DNA of 64,000 nt from a virus, in IMG/VR virus record IMGVR_UViG_3300013094_000036, positions 1 through 64,000 of that record; one strand, written 5' to 3'. Shown here in pieces: positions 8,940 to 62,460 of this stretch. A program made the position numbers and the translations under genes. Position 1 is the stretch's first letter. The number at the start of each line of letters is the position of its first letter. Under the pieces are notes generated by a model. The model was not told the origin of the DNA. It saw only the letters and a list, made by a program, of their open reading frames with translations, and ran no database searches.

Positions 8940-9995
8940 ATGGCACGAATACTTTTCATTCTAAAAAGACGCCCAGATTATAATCAAAAAATTCATAATC
9001 ATGTTGGTATAAGCACTGGTCTGTTTAACAGTGTAAAATTCATGGACACTATGCTTCAGGAAGCAGGTGTAGAAAGCAAAATGTTTGTGGCTGTTGATAA
9101 TAATTGTATTGACAGAGAAGTTCGCGCCTACAAACCAACACACGTAATTATAGAAGCACTTTGGGTTGTACCCACTAAATTTGATGTTTTATCAAAACTG
9201 CACCCCACTGTAACTTGGATAATACGACTGCACAGTGAAATGCCTTTTATTGCAAGTGAAGGTATAGCCATGGATTGGCTGGGTGATTATGCCAGATTTA
9301 AAAATATTATCATAGGAGTCAATGCACCACGAATGATGGAGGAAACAAAAACGTTTCTTCAAACAGTATATGATTGGACAGAGGATGAGTTAGACCGGCG
9401 TGTTATATACATGCCAAATTTTTATCCACAAGATTATAAAACTAAAACATTTAATCCAGATAACGAATATTTAAATATAAGTTGTTTTGGTGCAATACGA
9501 CCACTTAAAAATCACCTATTACAAGCTATTTGTGCAGTAGAATTTGCCGAGTCACTGGGTAGAAAATGCAGATTTCACATAAACAGTGGACGCATTGAAA
9601 TGAAAGGTGAGCCAATACTTAATAATCTGAAAGGAATGTTCCAGCACTTGGCAGACAAAGGACACCAATTGGTCAGTCATGAATGGACTCCTCGCGATAA
9701 GTTTTTAGAGATTTGTGCTGAAATGGATATTGGCATGCAGGCAAGTATATCTGAAACATTCAATATAGTTGCTGCTGATCATTTAAGTCAAGGAGTGCCT
9801 GTTGTTACCAGCCGAGAAATGCCCTGGGCTATTCGATGGTTCTGTGCAAATCCAGTAGAAAGAACTGATATTATAAAAAAACTAAAAAGAGTCTGGCGGT
9901 TCCCAGAATTAAATGTGATGACAAATCAATATAGTTTGACTGCCTACACAAACCAAACACGAAAAATTTGGTTGAATTATTTTCAGGATAAATAA
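8940..9995 (+). CDS. GT-B (family 4-like) glycosyltransferase
   Basis: FGAIRPLKN and SISETFNIVAAD..S.GVPVV motifs. Confidence 0.75.
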   Translation: MARILFILKRRPDYNQKIHNHVGISTGLFNSVKFMDTMLQEAGVESKMFVAVDNNCIDREVRAYKPTHVIIEALWVVPTKFDVLSKLHPTVTWIIRLHSEMPFIASEGIAMDWLGDYARFKNIIIGVNAPRMMEETKTFLQTVYDWTEDELDRRVIYMPNFYPQDYKTKTFNPDNEYLNISCFGAIRPLKNHLLQAICAVEFAESLGRKCRFHINSGRIEMKGEPILNNLKGMFQHLADKGHQLVSHEWTPRDKFLEICAEMDIGMQASISETFNIVAADHLSQGVPVVTSREMPWAIRWFCANPVERTDIIKKLKRVWRFPELNVMTNQYSLTAYTNQTRKIWLNYFQDK

Positions 9996-10213: not shown

Positions 10214-10347
10214 CTTTTGTTTAAAATACCTTTATAAATATAAATGTTGCTGTTGAATGTCAGCAGCGTCAGCTGGGGTAAGATGGAAAAAGGTTGACAC
10301 AAGCTGCAGCCGTGTTATAGTGCAGATGTTGAAACGGAGCAAGCAAC

Positions 10348-10593
10348 ATGGGTGCTACTAGTAATAGCGAAAAGCTGGCAGCAGCTGAGCAGATACTGCC
10401 TTGTTACAACGCATGGCATCGCAGCTGCATGGAACAATGTGGCGTGCCGCTGCCCCGGCTCGAGCAAGATCTACTGACTGTCGCTGCCCGTTACAAGCAC
10501 CTCAAAGTGCCACAGAAGATGGGTGCAGCGGTGGGCAGATGGGCTGCCAAGCAGTTGGGACTCAAGTGGACAGCATTCAACGGCATACAATAA
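10348..10593 (+). CDS. Hypothetical early protein
   Basis: Own promoter and GGAGC RBS. Confidence 0.65.
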   Translation: MGATSNSEKLAAAEQILPCYNAWHRSCMEQCGVPLPRLEQDLLTVAARYKHLKVPQKMGAAVGRWAAKQLGLKWTAFNGIQ

Positions 10594-10651
10594 CTGGTTG
10601 ACATCGAGCCAAGACCTGTTATTATGTGTCTGCAAGCAAGGAGCAAGCAAC

Positions 10652-10831
10652 ATGGAAAACAACTATTTCATTGACGCTGATGCTGCATACGAAGCACGCT
10701 GGGAGCGTGATGAAACCTTCGATGACTTCGACAGTGCTGTCACCTGCGAGGAATACTACAACGAGCAAGAGTGGGACGAGCCGGATGTGGGCGAGGCCCA
10801 GGAGTGGGAATCCTTCGATCCCGACTGCTGA
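10652..10831 (+). CDS. Small, highly acidic early protein
   Basis: MENNYF...EAQEWESFDPDC, own promoter and RBS. Confidence 0.7.
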   Translation: MENNYFIDADAAYEARWERDETFDDFDSAVTCEEYYNEQEWDEPDVGEAQEWESFDPDC

Positions 10832-10891
10832 TTTTCGGTTGACACTGCAGGTGCTGGTGCTATTATGCACCAGCCAGCAAGGAGCAAGACA

Positions 10892-11242
10892 ATGATCAAC
10901 GTTAATACTGTGTTATACACCTGCGGTGACGGCTACTGGAGCCGTGCGGCACGTGCTGTCACTGTCAAAGGACTGTTTGTCAGCTATGAATCTGACAACG
11001 CTGAGTTTGGCGAGCTGCGAGTATACTTTGACACTGCCAGCTGGAATGTCAACAAGCTGGGACTGATCTACACTGACAGCCAGTTCGAAACTGAACTGTG
11101 CGAGTTCCTCACCAGCATAGGGCTGGACGGCAGCGATGTTGGCTACAGCGAACACGGCATGCAGGGCAGCAAATATGTCAGCTTGGACGTGGGCAAAGAT
11201 TTCCTCAGCAGCTGGCATGCCAAGTTTGCTGTGGCTGTGTGA
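10892..11242 (+). CDS. Hypothetical early protein
   Basis: GDGYWS, GLIYTD..F and YSEHGMQG motifs; own promoter and RBS. Confidence 0.7.
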   Translation: MINVNTVLYTCGDGYWSRAARAVTVKGLFVSYESDNAEFGELRVYFDTASWNVNKLGLIYTDSQFETELCEFLTSIGLDGSDVGYSEHGMQGSKYVSLDVGKDFLSSWHAKFAVAV

Positions 11243-11300
11243 TTTTGGTTGACACTGCAGGTGTTGGTGCTATTATGCACTTGCAAACAAGGAGCAAAAC

Positions 11301-11519
11301 ATGAAATATATTGTTTATGGCGATTATGGCTATGTCAACGAGCAAGAGCTTTACAGCTGCAACAGCCGCGATCAATCTGTTGCGTGGGCAAAGAAATACT
11401 GCCGTCGCGACACAGGTGGCTACAACGTCATCGAAGTTGCTTACTTTGCCAATGACGGTGAATATGTGCCAGTGTGGCAGTTTGAAGCTGAAGAAGAATT
11501 GCTCTACGACGAGTTGTAA
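11301..11519 (+). CDS. Hypothetical early protein
   Basis: Own promoter and RBS. Confidence 0.7.
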   Translation: MKYIVYGDYGYVNEQELYSCNSRDQSVAWAKKYCRRDTGGYNVIEVAYFANDGEYVPVWQFEAEEELLYDEL

Positions 11520-11577
11520 AAACCATTGACCATTTCAAACATCGTGCTATAATGATTCTGCAAGCAAGGAGCTATCA

Positions 11578-12078
11578 ATGAGTGATCGTACCTACACCGT
11601 TGCGGGGACCAGTGTGCAAAATGGCAAAAAGACTCTGCGTCTTGCCAACGGCACTGCTGCTGCTCGCAGCAAGATTTTAATCAAAGCAGGCTGCACAGAA
11701 GTGAAGTTGTTTGACTTGCCCCAGCCCATGTCTGCACCTGCTGCTCAAGCATGGCTGTTGTCGCAGGGCGATTCAGTGCCTGCCAGCGTGCCCAGCAGCA
11801 ACACTGCCAAACAGCGTAAAACTGCAGATCTAGCAGCTGCTAGTGCCAGCACAGAGCCTGTGGAAATTGCACACGAAGAGCTGGGGTTTGCTGCATCGGG
11901 TATGACGCGCGAATACTGGGACAATCAAAGTGTCATTGTGCGGCAAGAGATGTCTCGCAATGCTGCATGGGCTGCAGGCATCGAATGTGCTCGCGGTACT
12001 TATCCAGAGCTGGACATGTGGCTGGAAATGGAAGGCATTTTCACACACAACGATGGCACTTTGCAGGAGGCTGCCTAA
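11578..12078 (+). CDS. Hypothetical early protein
   Basis: YTVAGTS...K.R.AN N-terminal domain; own promoter; ends in AA. Confidence 0.7.
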   Translation: MSDRTYTVAGTSVQNGKKTLRLANGTAAARSKILIKAGCTEVKLFDLPQPMSAPAAQAWLLSQGDSVPASVPSSNTAKQRKTADLAAASASTEPVEIAHEELGFAASGMTREYWDNQSVIVRQEMSRNAAWAAGIECARGTYPELDMWLEMEGIFTHNDGTLQEAA

Positions 12079-14160: not shown

Positions 14161-14913
14161 TTACAATCTTCCTTTGACCAGCCCCAACTGCTGAATTTTA
14201 GGATCACCTATTTTTAACAAATAACTTTTAGACCCGTTGTTATACCAGTGGGTCTTTTTCTTTGATTCAAAATAATCTACAGAACTTACCCATCCGTTGG
14301 GAATAACATCTTTGGGTCCGAATCGCTTCTTTTCTTTTGTTGTTAGGTTGTAGTAGAACTTTGTTCCATAAGAACCATTGTTGCTACCAGAAACTTTTTT
14401 AGATAAGTTTTCGGATCTTTCTTTTCTTTGATCTTCCGTTAGATTTTCCCAAGTATTAGGATTTAACAATCCCATTTCTACTAATTTAGACCAACCTGTT
14501 TGCCTAACTTTATTGTAAGTTTCTTCGGTCCAATTTTGAGTTCCGCCTACTACAATCTCACCTGAATCAACTTTTTGACGATATGCCTTAATATTTGGTC
14601 TATCTTCTTTTGGTATAGAATTTATGTGTTCAAACCCACCTATACCACCTGACCGCATATTATAACAATATGATTTACCCAGGTGCGGTGCTACTGTTTC
14701 TTCTTCTTTGAGCAAACATTCAGATTCATTTTCAAACACAAACAAAGTTTCCCTAACGAAATTATCTTTGCCATACTTTTTTACAGCATTGATTATCTGG
14801 GAACCGGATCCATAATAACCGTCAAATTGATACGGATCAATAGTTTGGCGATGTTTGCCAATATAAAATTTATTGTTGACAAGATTGATTGTTTTGTATA
14901 TAATATAAAACAT
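14161..14913 (-). CDS. GIY-YIG (Seg-like) homing endonuclease
   Basis: IIYKTINLVNNKFYIGKH...YYGSG...YGKDNF.RE..YN. Confidence 0.92.
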   Translation of the reverse strand: MFYIIYKTINLVNNKFYIGKHRQTIDPYQFDGYYGSGSQIINAVKKYGKDNFVRETLFVFENESECLLKEEETVAPHLGKSYCYNMRSGGIGGFEHINSIPKEDRPNIKAYRQKVDSGEIVVGGTQNWTEETYNKVRQTGWSKLVEMGLLNPNTWENLTEDQRKERSENLSKKVSGSNNGSYGTKFYYNLTTKEKKRFGPKDVIPNGWVSSVDYFESKKKTHWYNNGSKSYLLKIGDPKIQQLGLVKGRL

Positions 14914-15007
14914 AGTGTGTAACCCTTATAAATACAGTAGAGGACAGTCCCGAGTAACCCCGGGGTTGGTGTTAGTTACCGCTAACACCTTACTCTACTA
15001 TTTATGA

Positions 15008-15330
15008 TTGTATGAAGGAAAAAGAACAATTGACTGGACGCGGGGGGCAGTGCCCCGCCCGCTCCACCATAAGAGCATAAATTTACTTTGGTATTCCGTG
15101 TAAATTTACTTTGGTATTCCGTGTAAATTTACTTTGGTATTGTGTGCTTATGATGGGGGTGACTAGGTTCGATCAGCTGTGGTAAGGGTTGAGGTAGGCA
15201 ATGAGTAAGATACGACTCACAATCAGTTCAAAAACTATAAATGCCAACGATAATGTTGCATTTGAGGAAACTGCCCTAGCGGCATAACCTCATTGGGTAT
15301 GGGTTCCACCTAGAAACAGAACGGACTCAA
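15008..15330 (+). ncRNA. ssrA: Circularly permuted (two-piece) tmRNA
   Basis: Acceptor piece ends CGCTCCACCA (15069) and has a GGCAGTG T-loop. Coding piece starts GGGGTG (about 15156). Tag (A)ANDNVAFEETALAA* at 15243..15287. Outer ends are approximate. Confidence 0.93.
15078..15141 (+). repeat. 23-nt tandem repeat (about 2.8 copies) in the tmRNA intervening segment
   Basis: taaatttactttggtattccgtg repeated. Confidence 0.9.
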
Positions 15331-15429
15331 TTTCACCTGTATATTTTGACTTTTTCAAATCTATATATTATCTTTTAAATGTGGCACATAATTTGCCACA
15401 ACACACACAAACACAGAAAGGAAAATATC

Positions 15430-58486: not shown

Positions 58487-58845
58487 TGCCTATTTGGGAA
58501 ATTCACAGAGTCACAAAAAGTGGCAAAACCGTAAAAACTGTGCTGGCAACTGGTAACACAGAAAAAGAGGCTTGGAGAGTTTTTAACCACCATGAAACAT
58601 GGCGATGTTACCCAGAGTCTGCAAGTTTTGCGGCTATTCTAAAAAATTGAGCCTACAAGGTGTGCAGTCGATGGGTGTAAACCTATGAAAGAATGGTTAA
58701 TTATATCGATAGTTGTTATTATCTTGGCAAGTATTTTTAGCATACCTGTCTTAATTTGGATTGTCAAACCAAAAAAGAAGAATTGACAATCCAGAAAAAA
58801 TTTATAAAATAAAAATAGAAATAGTTGGCCAAGAAGGATTGTAAA

Positions 58846-59118
58846 ATGAAAAATATCGTGACAGAAAAACCAATGATAACAGAAATTCAAAATCAAGATC
58901 AGATCGATGTTGACGTTGCCATGTTGAAAGCTAATCTGGAAACAGCCAAATCCAGCGGCGATAGTGCAAGAGCAACAAAACTTGAAAAACAAATTGCATT
59001 ACTAGAAGATGCTGCTGTGATTTATCATCTACATTCTGAACGCAAGGTTTTTTATGTGGATGTTGGTGATATGCCACAAGAAGTTGTAGAAAAAATCAAA
59101 AAGGATTTAACAGAATGA
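58846..59118 (+). CDS. Hypothetical protein
   Basis: ER.VFYVDVGDMP motif reminiscent of a T4 portal segment; promoter upstream. Confidence 0.5.
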   Translation: MKNIVTEKPMITEIQNQDQIDVDVAMLKANLETAKSSGDSARATKLEKQIALLEDAAVIYHLHSERKVFYVDVGDMPQEVVEKIKKDLTE

Positions 59119-59651
59119 CAAAACAAGTACCAAATGTAACGTTCAAAACCCGAGTGCGAGATGAAAGCATTTCTGGTCCCAATCCCTATCGCTGGCAAGA
59201 CATGACCAGTGCAGATTATTTTACTGGCAAGCGAGTGATAGTTTTCAGTTTGCCTGGTGCGTTCACACCAACTTGCAGCACATACCAATTGCCAGATTTT
59301 GAAAAACTCTATGAAGATTTCACAGCACAGGGCATTGATGAAATTTACTGCATTTCAGTAAATGATTCTTTTGTCATGAATGCCTGGGGCCGTCAGCAGT
59401 GTGTGAATCGTGTCAAATTGATTCCAGATGGCAGTGGCAAGTTTACACGCATGATGGGCATGCTGGTGGACAAAGACAATCTGGGGTTTGGCATGCGTAG
59501 CTGGCGATATGCCATGCTGGTCAATGATGGTGTTATTGAAGAGTTTTGGCCAGAACCTGGTTTTCAAGACAACGCTGAAACTGATCCCTACGGCGAAAGT
59601 TCGCCACAAACAATTCTAGAGCGTATCAGCGGTAAAAACCAACAAAACTGA
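59115..59651 (+). CDS. Peroxiredoxin (PRX5-like)
   Basis: PGAFTPTCS, SVNDSFVM..W, RSWRYAM. Confidence 0.95.
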   Translation: MTKQVPNVTFKTRVRDESISGPNPYRWQDMTSADYFTGKRVIVFSLPGAFTPTCSTYQLPDFEKLYEDFTAQGIDEIYCISVNDSFVMNAWGRQQCVNRVKLIPDGSGKFTRMMGMLVDKDNLGFGMRSWRYAMLVNDGVIEEFWPEPGFQDNAETDPYGESSPQTILERISGKNQQN

Positions 59652-60180: not shown

Positions 60181-60726
60181 ATGACCAAAAAATCAAGTGT
60201 CGAAAACATGCGAGAATTAATGACACTTATGGAAAACGCAGCTGGTTTTCAAGCAGCAGACCCAACAGATCGCAGAAATATATCTTGGACTAAACCCAAT
60301 CTTAATTTTGAATGGTCAGAGATAGAGTTTCAATCAGACGTGCCAGACGTGCCATCTGATGTGAGACAGTACCTCAAGCAGCACTATCCGGATAAGGCTA
60401 CCTGGCTACGGGCAGCACAGCGGGGTCAGGCGGTGACCATACCGCCTAATCATAGGCTTGACATAGAAAACTATCCAAGAAACAAGCGGTCATTAATTGC
60501 TGAGCTCAAGCCACAGCAAGACTCGGCTGGTCCTGATAAGGCAGCTAGAGCAGAACAAGCCTTTGACAAAGGATCTGTGGAGATGCCTATTATTCTCAAC
60601 ACAGGCAACAGGCTTTGGTTGATTGGTGGCAAGACACGACTGGGCTTTGCCAACTATATCTTTAAAATTCCAGCTAAGGTATGGATGATAGGGGGGCAGC
60701 TCAAAAAAGCCAACTATTACGGTTGA
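60181..60726 (+). CDS. Hypothetical late protein with ParB-like C-terminal motif
   Basis: MPII...LIGG.TRL; N-terminal MRELM.LME. Confidence 0.55.
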   Translation: MTKKSSVENMRELMTLMENAAGFQAADPTDRRNISWTKPNLNFEWSEIEFQSDVPDVPSDVRQYLKQHYPDKATWLRAAQRGQAVTIPPNHRLDIENYPRNKRSLIAELKPQQDSAGPDKAARAEQAFDKGSVEMPIILNTGNRLWLIGGKTRLGFANYIFKIPAKVWMIGGQLKKANYYG

Positions 60727-61015
60727 AGAAATAGTAGCAATAAAACGGTATCTAACATCGGGTAAATATGATGAATAAAAATTTACTCTGTTAGATACTA
60801 CAAAATCATTTAAAACCGAAAATTGTCTCCCTGACCAATTATGGTTGACTAATCATGTGACTCTAGAACAATATTATCAAACAGGAAAATTTCACCTTTC
60901 ATCCGACGACGAAAAAATTTAAAAAAAATATCATAACCGTGCATTTTTTCAGTTGACAGATAAGTAAATATGATATATAAATACACTCATAAAGAGGATT
61001 AAGAGTTCAAAAACA

Positions 61016-61153
61016 ATGATGCAAAAAACAACAATTTTATGTAATGTAATTAACCGCGAGGCCTATAAGCCCGTGCTGAGGTTTGCTGCCTAGAGGATTC
61101 GTATAGATCATCAAGGTAAGCAAACCCCAGAAACAAAAATTCTGGGGTTTTTT
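61016..61153 (+). promoter_or_regulatory. Leader peptide (25 aa) plus terminator/antiterminator: putative attenuator
   Basis: ORF 61016-61093; terminator 61122-61153; 61076-61087 pairs with 61119-61130; -35 box at 60953. Confidence 0.7.
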
Positions 61154-61160
61154 GTTACAC

Positions 61161-61394
61161 AGGGTTTGAGAACTGACGACGATTTTGGTCACCTATGGCC
61201 AGTGTTTAGCGTATGAAACACAAAGGATAGGGACTCGCGGAGGGCAACAAGGTAGATATGTCTACTGGATACCAATGCGAGGCTGGGTTAGATAGAGATC
61301 ACCCAGTAGGAGTTGCCATATAGGCGACTCTGTTCGTGATTGTTTTGTGGGACGATGATGAGGGAAAGTCATCGTCCCAGAAAGTGAAACCTTT
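61161..61394 (+). ncRNA. Unknown structured ncRNA, about 235 nt
   Basis: Closing stem agggttt/aaacctt, at least six internal hairpins, GC-richer, no ORF. Confidence 0.6.
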
Positions 61395-61443
61395 TGCAGA
61401 ATGTATTTTTTGAAATGATTGTGCTAAGGGTTTTTAAGAATTT

Positions 61444-61529
61444 GAGGGGGCGCCAGAGTTGGAGAGCTGGAGCAGACTGTAAATCTGCCGCTTATTGCTG
61501 AGTGTGTTCGAATCACACCCCCCTCACCA
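61444..61529 (+). tRNA. tRNA-Tyr(GUA)
   Basis: Cloverleaf with long variable arm and CCA. Confidence 0.95.
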
Positions 61530-61540
61530 ACATAAGATAA

Positions 61541-61615
61541 CAGGGCGTAGCTCAGAAGGAGAGTGCTAGTTTTGGAAACTAGAGGCCGGGATTGCAAAAC
61601 TCCCCGCCCTGACCA
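61541..61615 (+). tRNA. tRNA-Pro(UGG)
   Basis: ctagt-TTTGGAA-actag, CCA; T-loop TGCAAAA. Confidence 0.9.
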
Positions 61616-61630
61616 GATAAAATAATATAT

Positions 61631-61705
61631 GGGTCTAAAGTGTTGTTGGGGGCACGCGGGATTTGCATTCCCGAAGGCGGGATTCAAGCTCCCGTAGATC
61701 CACCA
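61631..61705 (+). tRNA. tRNA-Ala(UGC)
   Basis: G3:U70 pair, TTTGCAT loop, CCA. Confidence 0.9.
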
Positions 61706-61799
61706 CTATTTTGGGTAATTTTCAATGCGTTGTAGTAATTCTTCCAGTGTCATTCTTGAAGTTTTTCTTGCAAAATTTTCTTCCCAACTAATCAATTAT

Positions 61800-61873
61800 G
61801 CCTCGTTCGTCCAATGGCAGGGCCGCATCTTTACACGGTGCAGACGGCAGTTCGATTCTGTCACGAGGTACCA
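61800..61873 (+). tRNA. tRNA-Val(UAC)
   Basis: gcatc-TTTACAC-ggtgc, TTCGATT T-loop, CCA. Confidence 0.92.
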
Positions 61874-61899
61874 ACGATTATTTTGGTATAAATAACTGC

Positions 61900-62460
61900 A
61901 TGAAAATTGCTATAACAGGTCATACTAGTGGTATCGGTATTGCAACATATAATCTACTGCAAGAACACAATCATATCGTACAAGGGTTCAGTAGATCTAA
62001 TGGGTTTGATCTAACTAATCAAGCAGAACGAACCAGTATGTATCAAATTCTTAAAAATGAACAATTTGACTGTTTGATAAACAATGCATATCCTTATCAA
62101 TCCGCACATGGCACCAACGGGTTTATGCAAACAGCAATATTAAATGATGTTTGGAAAATCTGGCGTTCTGATCCTGGAAAAACTATAATAACCATTGGTA
62201 GTTTAGGAGCAGACCATGTAAAAAACCAGTATATGCCATATGCTATTCATAAAAAATCAATTGACGATACTGCAAAACAATTGAGATTGGCTTGCCAATA
62301 TCCACAAGTCACTGTTATCAAACCTAGCTGGGTAGACACACCTGCTGTCAAGCAGTTCGATGGCAATAAATGCACAGCCCAACAGGTGGCAGAGATAATT
62401 CTTTGGATTTTAAACTGCCAAGTTAGAATTTTAGATATAACTTTTGAAAAGCGTGTTTAA
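61900..62460 (+). CDS. Short-chain dehydrogenase/reductase
   Basis: ITGHTSGIG, INNA, Y...K; TATAAATA upstream. Confidence 0.88.
   Translation: MKIAITGHTSGIGIATYNLLQEHNHIVQGFSRSNGFDLTNQAERTSMYQILKNEQFDCLINNAYPYQSAHGTNGFMQTAILNDVWKIWRSDPGKTIITIGSLGADHVKNQYMPYAIHKKSIDDTAKQLRLACQYPQVTVIKPSWVDTPAVKQFDGNKCTAQQVAEIILWILNCQVRILDITFEKRV

What the first reader, a model, noticed from the sequence alone, without database searches (positions are those of the whole stretch)
60953..61153. Leader-peptide attenuator gating the ncRNA and tRNA cluster
Seen: promoter, then a 25-codon ORF (MMQKTTILCNVINREAYKPVLRFAA, 61016-61093), then a strong terminator (aaaccccagaa/ttctggggttt plus T). The last leader codons (ctgaggtttgct, 61076-61087) pair 11/12 with agcaaaccccag (61119-61130), the terminator's 5' arm, so the two structures are mutually exclusive. 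Known: this is the geometry of ribosome-mediated attenuation. Unlike amino-acid operon leaders, it samples many different codons. Inference: normal translation terminates transcription, while stalling caused by tRNA depletion or cleavage switches on the phage tRNA array. This would be a sensor of anti-phage translation shutdown.
Basis: partly seen in the sequence, partly recalled or inferred. Interest (0 to 1): 0.82.

Follow-up and report, generated by a model that had tools for sequence, protein, structure and literature searches.

The report
Conserved leader-terminator heading phage tRNAs
A promoter, a 25-codon reading frame and a terminator form the front of an expressed phage RNA of about 390 bases that leads into a block of tRNA genes; it may be a translation-sensitive gate, but this is unproven.

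Summary
It is not a chance arrangement. Two other uncultivated phage lineages (L008 type, L009) carry the same module in the same order: A-tract, TTGACA-17-TATAAAT, a 25-26 codon ORF, hairpin P1, a terminator, a ~220-nt structured RNA, then tRNAs.

The ORF keeps its start and stop columns, but the peptide is not conserved. A column-shuffle null gives P = 0.0135 for all three frames staying open.

Lake metatranscriptome contigs from 4 of 4 runs laid cover about 61000-61386 with no mismatch. They bridge the terminator and leave the flanking genes uncovered. Leader, terminator and downstream RNA are therefore one unit, and the terminator is read through in nature.

Terminator and antiterminator are near-isoenergetic only in the window. 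In both homologs the terminator state wins by 8-9 kcal/mol. No Shine-Dalgarno lies at working distance, and no codon class is enriched.

Verdict: a real, conserved, expressed leader with a leaky or conditional terminator. Ribosome-modulated termination is the leading mechanism (about 0.4). The proposed sensor of tRNA cleavage by host defence is untested speculation (about 0.07). At most the first tRNA block can be gated.

The parts
60914..60940 (+). A-rich tract upstream of the -35 hexamer (UP-element-like)
   Evidence: Runs of A are invariant in window, L008 and L009 (alignment A1). The functional label is inferred.
60953..60982 (+). Sigma-70-type promoter: TTGACA, 17 nt, TATAAAT
   Evidence: Both hexamers are invariant in the 3 variants. 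RNA contigs start 61000-61008 in 4 of 4 runs laid, 19-27 nt after the -10 hexamer.
61016..61093 (+). 25-codon leader ORF (stop TAG)
   Evidence: Homologous ORFs have 25 codons (L008 8168-8245, TAG) and 26 codons (L009 9834-9914, TGA), with ATG and stop in the same alignment columns. P(all three open) = 0.0135 under column shuffling. Only 7 of 25 residues are shared between window and L008, by my count on the peptides.
61055..61075 (+). Hairpin P0 inside the ORF (codons 14-20)
   Evidence: Local folds give a hairpin at the same place in all three (-8.8, -8.2 and -15.0 kcal/mol). Its pairs cannot be aligned with confidence, so homology of the pairs is not shown.
61076..61130 (+). Hairpin P1 (61080-61091 with 61114-61126) plus a 3-pair extension (61076-61078 with 61128-61130): the candidate antiterminator
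   Evidence: P1 has 3 of 8 aligned pairs with compensatory change. The extension (GGAG-like against CCCC, with one A.C mismatch) forms in all three when the terminator's 3' arm is withheld.
61122..61156 (+). Intrinsic-terminator hairpin plus T run
   Evidence: Conserved, with 3 of 8 pairs compensatory and 91.7% of cells paired. Bridged by RNA contigs in 4 of 4 runs laid.
61157..61386 (+). Structured downstream RNA (domain II), ending in a hairpin at 61349-61378 with the invariant loop TGAGGGAAAG
   Evidence: z = -5.38. 24 of 56 predicted pairs show compensatory change. No Rfam family matches. RNA contigs end at 61385/61386 in 2 of 4 runs and at 61335/61342 in the other 2.
61444..61873 (+). First tRNA block: Tyr, a tRNA at 61541-61612 whose anticodon loop I read as UGG, Ala, Val
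   Evidence: RNA contigs at 61412-61563, 61455-61605 and 61578-61805 span several of these genes.

Best explanation
The finding is the 5' domain of one conserved, expressed phage transcription unit that heads a block of tRNA genes.

A strong host-type early promoter (60953-60982) starts an RNA whose parts, in order, are:
- a short A-rich 5' stretch;
- a 25-codon ORF whose translation matters, not its peptide;
- hairpins P0 and P1;
- an intrinsic terminator (61122-61156);
- after read-through, a 220-nt structured RNA ending near 61386;
- the tRNAs.

The terminator is a partial gate. P1 and its short extension form first and hold 2-6 bases of the terminator's 5' arm, including the C run that must pair with the G run next to the U tract. 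A ribosome that reaches the stop codon, which lies at the end of the P1 5' arm, melts P1 and frees the terminator. A late, stalled or absent ribosome favours read-through.

In read-through RNA the 5' UTR and the first codons pair with the U tract and the sequence just after it. This buries the AUG.

Shown: the elements, their conservation, ORF retention, covariation, co-transcription across the terminator, and the RNA's ends. Inferred: that the ORF is translated, that translation changes termination, and what signal is read.
For: 1. Module and order are conserved in all 3 known variants, while the upstream gene differs in each.
2. ORF retention:
 - ATG and stop fall in the same columns;
 - lengths are 25, 25 and 26 codons, so the only length difference is 3 nt;
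 - the stop changes TAG to TGA in L009;
 - identities inside the ORF are only 51%, 33% and 49%;
 - column shuffling gives P = 0.0135 for three open frames;
 - frame 0 has one stop per sequence, against 3-4 in each other frame;
 - differences between window and L008 fall 10/12/13 on codon positions 1/2/3, by my count on the codons, so the peptide is not under selection.
3. The stop codon overlaps the last base of the P1 5' arm in the window and lies within 1 nt of it in L008 and L009.
4. With the terminator's 3' arm withheld, P1 plus extension forms in all three (-25.3, -25.5 and -22.5 kcal/mol). In the window the antiterminator state is -29.0 against -28.4 for the terminator state.
5. Stems covary. 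87.4% of cells are paired, against 31-57% when partners are slid. There are 9 compensatory pairs, against 0-1 when slid.
6. RNA contigs at 61006-61385, 61008-61386, 61006-61342 and 61000-61335, with 0 mismatches, bridge the terminator in 4 of 4 metatranscriptome runs laid, of 12 RNA runs listed. The flanks 60602-60958 are uncovered.
7. On the + strand no promoter-like site with 2 or fewer mismatches lies between 60953 and 63730. In L009 only 19 nt separate the ncRNA from a tRNA-like sequence.
Against: 1. No Shine-Dalgarno sits at working distance. The conserved A(A/G)AGGA lies 16-19 nt before the ATG, whereas five repeated early promoter/5'UTR cassettes of this phage place AAGGAG 7-8 nt before their ATG.
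2. In L008 and L009 the terminator plus a trimmed P1 is the minimum-free-energy state (-33.5 and -31.5). That is 8-9 kcal/mol below the antiterminator alone, so any switch there must be kinetic and may be weak.
3. No codon class is enriched or shared. Only CGC and AGG recur.
4. P0 does not compete with P1, unlike the 1:2 and 2:3 pairings of trp-type leaders.
5. The long-range helices and the stable ~390-nt RNA fit a purely structural RNA equally well.
6. There are only three independent sequences. All statistics are post hoc, and the tested structure was derived from the same sequences.
7. Contigs carry no strand, no level and no proof of a single molecule.
8. L008 has TTGACA-17-TAGTAT between the ncRNA and tRNA-Pro, so tRNA gating is not universal.
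Confidence: 0.4

Rival explanations
1. A purely RNA-level element. The whole 60988-61386 stretch is one structured non-coding RNA, possibly with a shorter ~165-nt terminated isoform acting as an sRNA. The terminator hairpin is one arm of a multi-helix 5' domain. It leaks constitutively, and the ORF is incidental.
For: - RNA contigs cover leader, terminator and ncRNA together and stand out from the flanking genes.
- The 5' UTR and first codons pair with the U tract and the post-terminator sequence: helices 1 and 2 have 19 pairs, 87% of cells paired and 3 compensatory pairs. This explains the conserved 5' sequence without invoking translation.
- No Shine-Dalgarno at working distance.
- No codon-position bias.
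- Strong fold z-scores.
Against: - It does not explain why three sequences only 33-51% identical keep one frame open from the same ATG to the same stop column (P = 0.0135), why their lengths differ by exactly 3 nt, or why TAG is replaced by TGA.
- A strong hairpin plus U tract inside a structural RNA would waste transcripts unless it is used for control.
Confidence: 0.3
2. Factor-dependent antitermination of the lambda type. The early promoter makes a short terminated RNA until a phage or host factor lets RNA polymerase pass the terminator, giving delayed expression of the ncRNA and tRNAs. The factor could be an N- or Q-like protein, or the leader hairpins acting on the polymerase like HK022 put RNA.
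For: - The layout (constitutive-looking strong promoter, structured short RNA, terminator, then the regulated genes) matches what the abstract of PMC7547250 describes for PR'/tR' (seen in the listing).
- Conserved hairpins P0 and P1 lie just after the start.
- Long untranslated tRNA transcripts would benefit from processive antitermination (inference).
Against: - No antiterminator gene or boxA-like motif was identified, and neither was searched for systematically. The record is about 20% complete.
- It does not explain ORF retention.
Confidence: 0.15
3. The first reader's specific claim, which is a subset of the best explanation: the leader samples many codons so that tRNA depletion or cleavage by host anti-phage tRNases stalls the ribosome and switches on the phage tRNA array.
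For: - Same geometry as the best explanation.
- Leader codons are diverse.
- Phage tRNAs are documented as counter-measures to tRNA-targeting defences (abstracts of PMC10264068 and PMC11555353 in the listing).
Against: - Nothing links this leader to tRNA status.
- No shared codons lie at positions where stalling would leave P1 free.
- Only the first block of about 4-8 tRNAs can depend on this promoter.
- One tRNA lies upstream.
- L008 has a promoter after the ncRNA.
- Read-through RNA is common in ordinary lake samples.
Confidence: 0.07
4. A small-protein gene with its own promoter and terminator. Its 25-residue product is the functional part.
For: The ORF is retained with the same length. It has its own promoter and terminator.
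Against: - The peptide is almost unconserved: 7 of 25 residues are shared between window and L008.
- Substitutions are spread evenly over codon positions.
- No Pfam hit.
- No Shine-Dalgarno.
- The nucleotides are constrained by RNA stems instead.
Confidence: 0.05

Closest known systems
Leader-peptide transcription attenuators of amino-acid operons (trpL, hisL, pheL, thrL, leuL, ilvL; Rfam His_leader and others)
   Same: Promoter-proximal ORF of 14-32 codons, a series of hairpins, an intrinsic terminator about 60 nt after the stop codon, and a stop codon placed so that a terminating ribosome covers the strand needed for the antiterminator. (Family features are recalled.)
   Different: - No run of regulatory codons.
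- No 1:2 versus 2:3 competition.
- The overlap between antiterminator and terminator is short.
- No Shine-Dalgarno.
- The downstream genes are RNA genes, not biosynthetic enzymes.
- No significant Rfam match: His_leader scores 17.6 bits, E = 3.1, against a gathering score of 49, on L009 only.
Lambda-type antitermination units (PR'-6S RNA-tR' with Q; N/nut; HK022 put RNA)
   Same: A strong promoter followed at once by a short structured RNA and a terminator that gates later genes. The short terminated RNA can itself be a regulator (abstract of PMC7547250, listing).
   Different: No antiterminator protein, Q-binding element or boxA/boxB was identified here. A conserved ORF is present. The family details are recalled and were not tested.
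Attenuator-derived dual-function RNA rnTrpL/peTrpL of Sinorhizobium
   Same: The terminated leader of a ribosome-dependent attenuator is released as a trans-acting sRNA (abstracts of PMC6614838 and PMC7968998, listing). This is one possible fate for the ~165-nt short form here.
   Different: No evidence here for a short form or for targets. There is no Trp codon logic.
Stable RNAs RNAC and RNAD of phage T4
   Same: Phage-encoded small stable RNAs of unknown function (passages of PMC9697503). I recall, from no call, that they lie in the T4 tRNA region and are co-transcribed with tRNAs.
   Different: No sequence or structure comparison was made. The T4 RNAs are not known to carry a leader ORF and terminator.

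Membership tests
Leader-peptide (ribosome-mediated) transcription attenuator | Short ORF directly after the promoter, retained in relatives | tested here: met
   ORFs of 25, 25 and 26 codons with the same start and stop columns in 3 of 3 variants. P = 0.0135 by column shuffling.
Leader-peptide (ribosome-mediated) transcription attenuator | Efficient ribosome binding site for the leader ORF | tested here: not met
   The conserved AGGA-like motif lies 16-19 nt before the ATG. The phage's own early genes put AAGGAG 7-8 nt before theirs. Initiation independent of Shine-Dalgarno cannot be excluded.
Leader-peptide (ribosome-mediated) transcription attenuator | Intrinsic terminator between the leader ORF and the regulated genes | tested here: met
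   61122-61156. Conserved and covarying.
Leader-peptide (ribosome-mediated) transcription attenuator | Antiterminator mutually exclusive with the terminator | tested here: inconclusive
   Window: -29.0 against -28.4 kcal/mol. L008 and L009: only a 2-6 nt overlap, and the terminator state is favoured by 8-9 kcal/mol.
Leader-peptide (ribosome-mediated) transcription attenuator | Regulatory codons enriched in the leader | tested here: not met
   No codon class is enriched or shared apart from single CGC and AGG codons.
Leader-peptide (ribosome-mediated) transcription attenuator | Read-through depends on leader translation | not testable with these tools
   Needs coupled transcription-translation or reporter assays.
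Intrinsic (Rho-independent) terminator | G+C-rich hairpin followed by a U tract, and termination in vivo | tested here: inconclusive
   The sequence features are met. RNA contigs bridge the site in 4 of 4 runs laid, so termination is at most partial. A short form ending at 61153 could not be looked for, because contigs show no ends.
Any curated Rfam family (4227 models) | Score at or above the gathering threshold | tested here: not met
   Nothing reaches threshold between 60953 and 61443. The best sub-threshold hits are Yfr10 (24.1 bits, E = 1.1) and Rev39_5p_UTR (18.3 bits against a gathering score of 88). L008 and L009 give nothing either.
Stand-alone sRNA gene | Own promoter and own terminator that delimit the RNA | tested here: inconclusive
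   Both are present, but the RNA contigs continue 180-230 nt past the terminator.

The most novel reading that the evidence does not exclude
The leader is a translation-capacity sensor that feeds back on tRNA supply. When ribosomes lag on the 25-codon frame, because tRNAs are scarce or are being cut by a host anti-phage nuclease, P1 holds the terminator's C run. RNA polymerase then runs on into the structured RNA and the phage's own tRNAs. This would be the first ribosome-mediated attenuator known to control RNA genes and a phage counter-defence.

A second unexcluded variant starts from two observations. In all three sequences the frame stays open past the stop codon through the terminator, for 40, 22 and 37 codons, while the other two frames close. 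L008 and L009 also carry amber-suppressor tRNAs nearby. Suppression of the leader's TAG could therefore drive a ribosome through the terminator. The TGA stop in L009 argues against this variant.
Probability: 0.08. Interest if true: 0.85.

Novelty: new variant of a known kind. Interest (0 to 1): 0.55.

Why it matters
Phage tRNA arrays are now viewed as counter-measures to tRNA-targeting host defences, but how their expression is controlled is largely unknown. My two literature searches on this, judged from listings and abstracts only, returned no paper describing an attenuator or leader ahead of a phage tRNA array.

This finding offers a conserved cis element, expressed in nature, at the head of such an array. 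It has a retained but unconserved short ORF and an internal terminator, joined to an uncharacterised 220-nt structured RNA with strong covariation.

If translation controls the terminator, this would extend ribosome-mediated attenuation to RNA genes and to phage-host conflict. If it does not, it is still a new structured phage RNA with an unusual built-in terminator. In both cases the mutants needed to test it are easy to define.

Tried and rejected
- Neighbours of the 181-aa upstream gene: 5 viral loci share the gene at about 70% identity but nothing else, and carry no tRNAs. They gave no information on the leader.
- The SDR-like gene (61900-62460) has no relatives in viral contigs.
- An exact terminator pattern gave 0 hits in viral contigs.
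- The isolate phage collection matched only the tRNAs: 49 records, none covering 80% of the query.
- Pattern scans found only the three known variants plus two chance hits, L089 and L091 (checked). Genome contigs gave 0.
- An nhmmer profile over 85 loci and covariance model R1 over 88 loci found nothing new. R1 matched 0 of 10 related viral records, 4 of them at least 90% complete. The module is confined to a narrow clade, or is too diverged to detect.
- The L008-type copies are identical apart from one T deletion, so they offer no microdiversity to exploit.
- TAG recoding was rejected for this 72-kb record. Reading TAG as sense merges no two long ORFs, and TAG ends 9 of 55 long ORFs.
- MAFFT could not align P0 reliably, so no covariation claim is made for P0.
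- No contig covers 61387-61411 in the four runs laid. This says nothing about whether the ncRNA and the tRNAs are joined.
- RNase P, T-box, GOLLD/ROOL and Y-RNA-like identities for the downstream RNA: no Rfam hit at E up to 10 other than chance-level ones.

Full report
**Context.** The window is the first 64 kb of a 72,148-nt IMG/VR virus record judged about 20% complete, so it comes from a very large phage. Consensus-like sigma-70 promoters are frequent and strongly biased to the + strand. A two-piece tmRNA lies at 14972-15378. tRNA genes are scattered from 59956 to 68640, with protein genes between them.

**The observation.**
- Promoter: TTGACA at 60953, 17 nt, then TATAAA(T).
- ORF: 25 codons, 61016-61093, ending in TAG.
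- Terminator: an 11-pair hairpin at 61122-61150 followed by a T run.
- Alternative pairing: 61076-61087 with 61119-61130, 11 of 12 positions, which belongs to the minimum-free-energy fold (z = -3.65).

Mapped precisely, the structure has these parts:
- P1 is 61080-61091 paired with 61114-61126. Its last 5' base is the U of the stop codon.
- A 3-pair extension (61076-61078 with 61128-61130) follows one A.C mismatch.
- The terminator's 5' arm is 61122-61132.

The competing structures therefore share 61122-61130. The two states are nearly isoenergetic in the window, -29.0 against -28.4 kcal/mol.

**Relatives.** Homologues came from neighbours of the peroxiredoxin gene at 59115-59651 (114 relatives, 80 loci kept). 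Only two of those loci match the leader: L008 (68.8% identity over 471 nt) and L009. Further searches added only identical copies of the L008 type and two chance hits:
- pattern scans of viral, metagenome and genome collections;
- an nhmmer profile;
- a covariance model of the downstream RNA.

There are therefore three independent variants.

**What is conserved.** The upstream gene differs in each variant, but the module that follows is the same:
- an A-tract and invariant -35 and -10 hexamers;
- an ATG;
- an ORF of 25, 25 or 26 codons;
- a hairpin inside the ORF;
- P1;
- the terminator with its T run;
- a structured RNA of about 220 nt, whose terminal hairpin has covarying stems and an invariant 10-nt loop;
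- then tRNAs.

**The ORF.** Inside the ORF the sequences are only 51%, 33% and 49% identical, yet all three keep the frame open between the same start and stop columns. Column shuffling gives P = 0.0135. Single sequences give 0.17-0.25.

The one length difference is 3 nt, and the stop is TAG, TAG and TGA. The peptides share little. Differences between window and L008 fall 10/12/13 on codon positions 1/2/3, by my count on the codons.

This pattern, with the frame kept and the peptide free, is what a regulatory leader ORF predicts. The statistics are post hoc and rest on three sequences.

Against translation, the conserved AGGA-like motif is 16-19 nt from the ATG. This phage's repeated early promoter cassettes carry AAGGAG 7-8 nt before their start codons.

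**The switch.** When the terminator's 3' arm is withheld, P1 plus extension forms in all three and holds part of the C run. In L008 and L009, however, the terminator plus a trimmed P1 is the minimum-free-energy state by 8-9 kcal/mol. 'Mutually exclusive' is therefore true only for the window. Elsewhere a switch would have to be kinetic.

A ribosome at the stop codon would cover the P1 5' arm in all three. This rests on the known size of the ribosome footprint and is an inference.

**Long-range pairing.** The consensus fold of the full RNA pairs two regions with sequence beyond the terminator:
- the 5' UTR just before the AUG pairs with the sequence just after the terminator;
- codons 2-4 pair with the U tract.

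On the named structure, 87.4% of cells are paired, against 31-57% for slid partners. There are 9 compensatory pairs, against 0-1 for slid partners. The tool cautions that a structure derived from the same sequences is favoured in this test.

In read-through RNA the start codon would thus be buried. The same pairing also fits a purely structural RNA.

**Expression.** Twelve lake metatranscriptome runs hold 26-51% of the words of 60700-61900. I laid four. Each gives a contig with no mismatch from 61000-61008 to 61335-61386. Each bridges the terminator, and none covers 60602-60958.

Further contigs span the tRNA genes at 61412-61563, 61455-61605 and 61578-61805.

Contigs give no strand, level or ends. 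The four studies may belong to one campaign. Still, the boundaries match the predicted start and the end of the terminal hairpin.

I conclude that leader, terminator and downstream RNA are transcribed together from the 60953 promoter, and that the terminator is read through in nature.

**What can be gated.** On the + strand no promoter-like site with 2 or fewer mismatches lies between 60953 and 63730. The more permissive scan lists only weak sites at 62066, 62371 and 62491. The first tRNA block can therefore depend on this promoter.

Three facts limit the claim:
- later tRNAs follow their own promoter-like sites;
- one tRNA lies upstream;
- L008 has TTGACA-17-TAGTAT between its ncRNA and tRNA-Pro.

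In L009 only 19 nt separate the ncRNA from a tRNA-like sequence.

**Comparison with known systems.** The layout works like a leader-peptide attenuator. It fails or leaves open several defining features of that family: ribosome binding site, regulatory codons, and strict exclusivity of the two structures. It matches no Rfam family.

Lambda-type antitermination units and attenuator-derived sRNAs are the other close analogues (abstracts seen in the listings). T4 RNAC and RNAD are phage stable RNAs of unknown function (passages). Their position among T4's tRNA genes is recalled, not checked.

My searches, judged from listings and abstracts only, showed no paper describing a leader or attenuator before a phage tRNA array. 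Supplements were not consulted.

| Reading | Confidence |
|---|---|
| Translation-modulated, leaky terminator inside a conserved, expressed unit of about 390 nt | about 0.4 |
| Pure structural RNA with a chance ORF | about 0.3 |
| Factor-dependent antitermination | about 0.15 |

The last reading is an attractive but untested extrapolation.

Noticed in passing
window 61157-61386: Uncharacterised structured RNA of about 220 nt between the terminator and tRNA-Tyr. 24 of 56 predicted pairs are compensatory across three variants. The terminal hairpin has an invariant 10-nt loop. No Rfam family matches, and there is a single copy in the record.
   Followed up: partly
window 61094-61216; L008 8246-8311; L009 9915-10025: In all three variants the leader's frame stays open beyond its stop codon through P1 and the terminator, for 40, 22 and 37 codons. 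The other two frames close within P1. This may be chance or may hint at stop-codon read-through.
   Followed up: partly
L007 3267-3343; L008 7267-7340; L009 7034-7108; L086 435-508 and 12366-12441: The relatives carry tRNAs with anticodon CTA (amber suppressors; ARAGORN labels them Pyl). In L008 one lies about 0.9 kb upstream of the leader. The window's own 72-kb record shows no sign of TAG recoding.
   Followed up: partly
window 10294-11578: Five copies of a promoter/5'UTR cassette (TTGACA, 16 nt, TAT(T/A)AT, then ...GCAAGCAAGGAGCAA before ATG), spaced 241-410 nt apart. Each heads a small gene. The region is unusually G+C-rich (0.49 against about 0.37 elsewhere).
   Followed up: partly
window 14972-15378: Phage-encoded permuted (two-piece) tmRNA with tag ANDNVAFEETALAA, preceded by a perfect TTGACA-17-TATAAT at 14876. 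The tag resembles alphaproteobacterial tags; that resemblance is recalled, not tested.
   Followed up: no
L008 8678-8712 and 8745-9183: A tRNA-Tyr-like 5' half that stops just after a GTA anticodon-like triplet. It is followed by an ORF with an HNH-like Cys/His motif and then a complete tRNA-Tyr at 9186-9270. This may be an interrupted or duplicated tRNA gene with a homing-endonuclease insertion.
   Followed up: no
L009 10181-10264: A tRNA-Tyr-like sequence (GTA in the anticodon-loop position, encoded CCA end, odd T-loop) 19 nt after the ncRNA. Neither ARAGORN nor the Rfam tRNA model calls it.
   Followed up: no
window 60181-60726: A 181-aa ORF with no Pfam family. It is shared at about 70% identity with five viral contigs that have no other similarity or synteny, so it is probably a mobile or exchanged gene.
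   Followed up: partly
window 58825-59118: A 97-aa ORF matches only positions 175-223 of the 433-position T4 portal profile (E = 2.9e-08). This is a fragment-like hit beside a peroxiredoxin gene.
   Followed up: no
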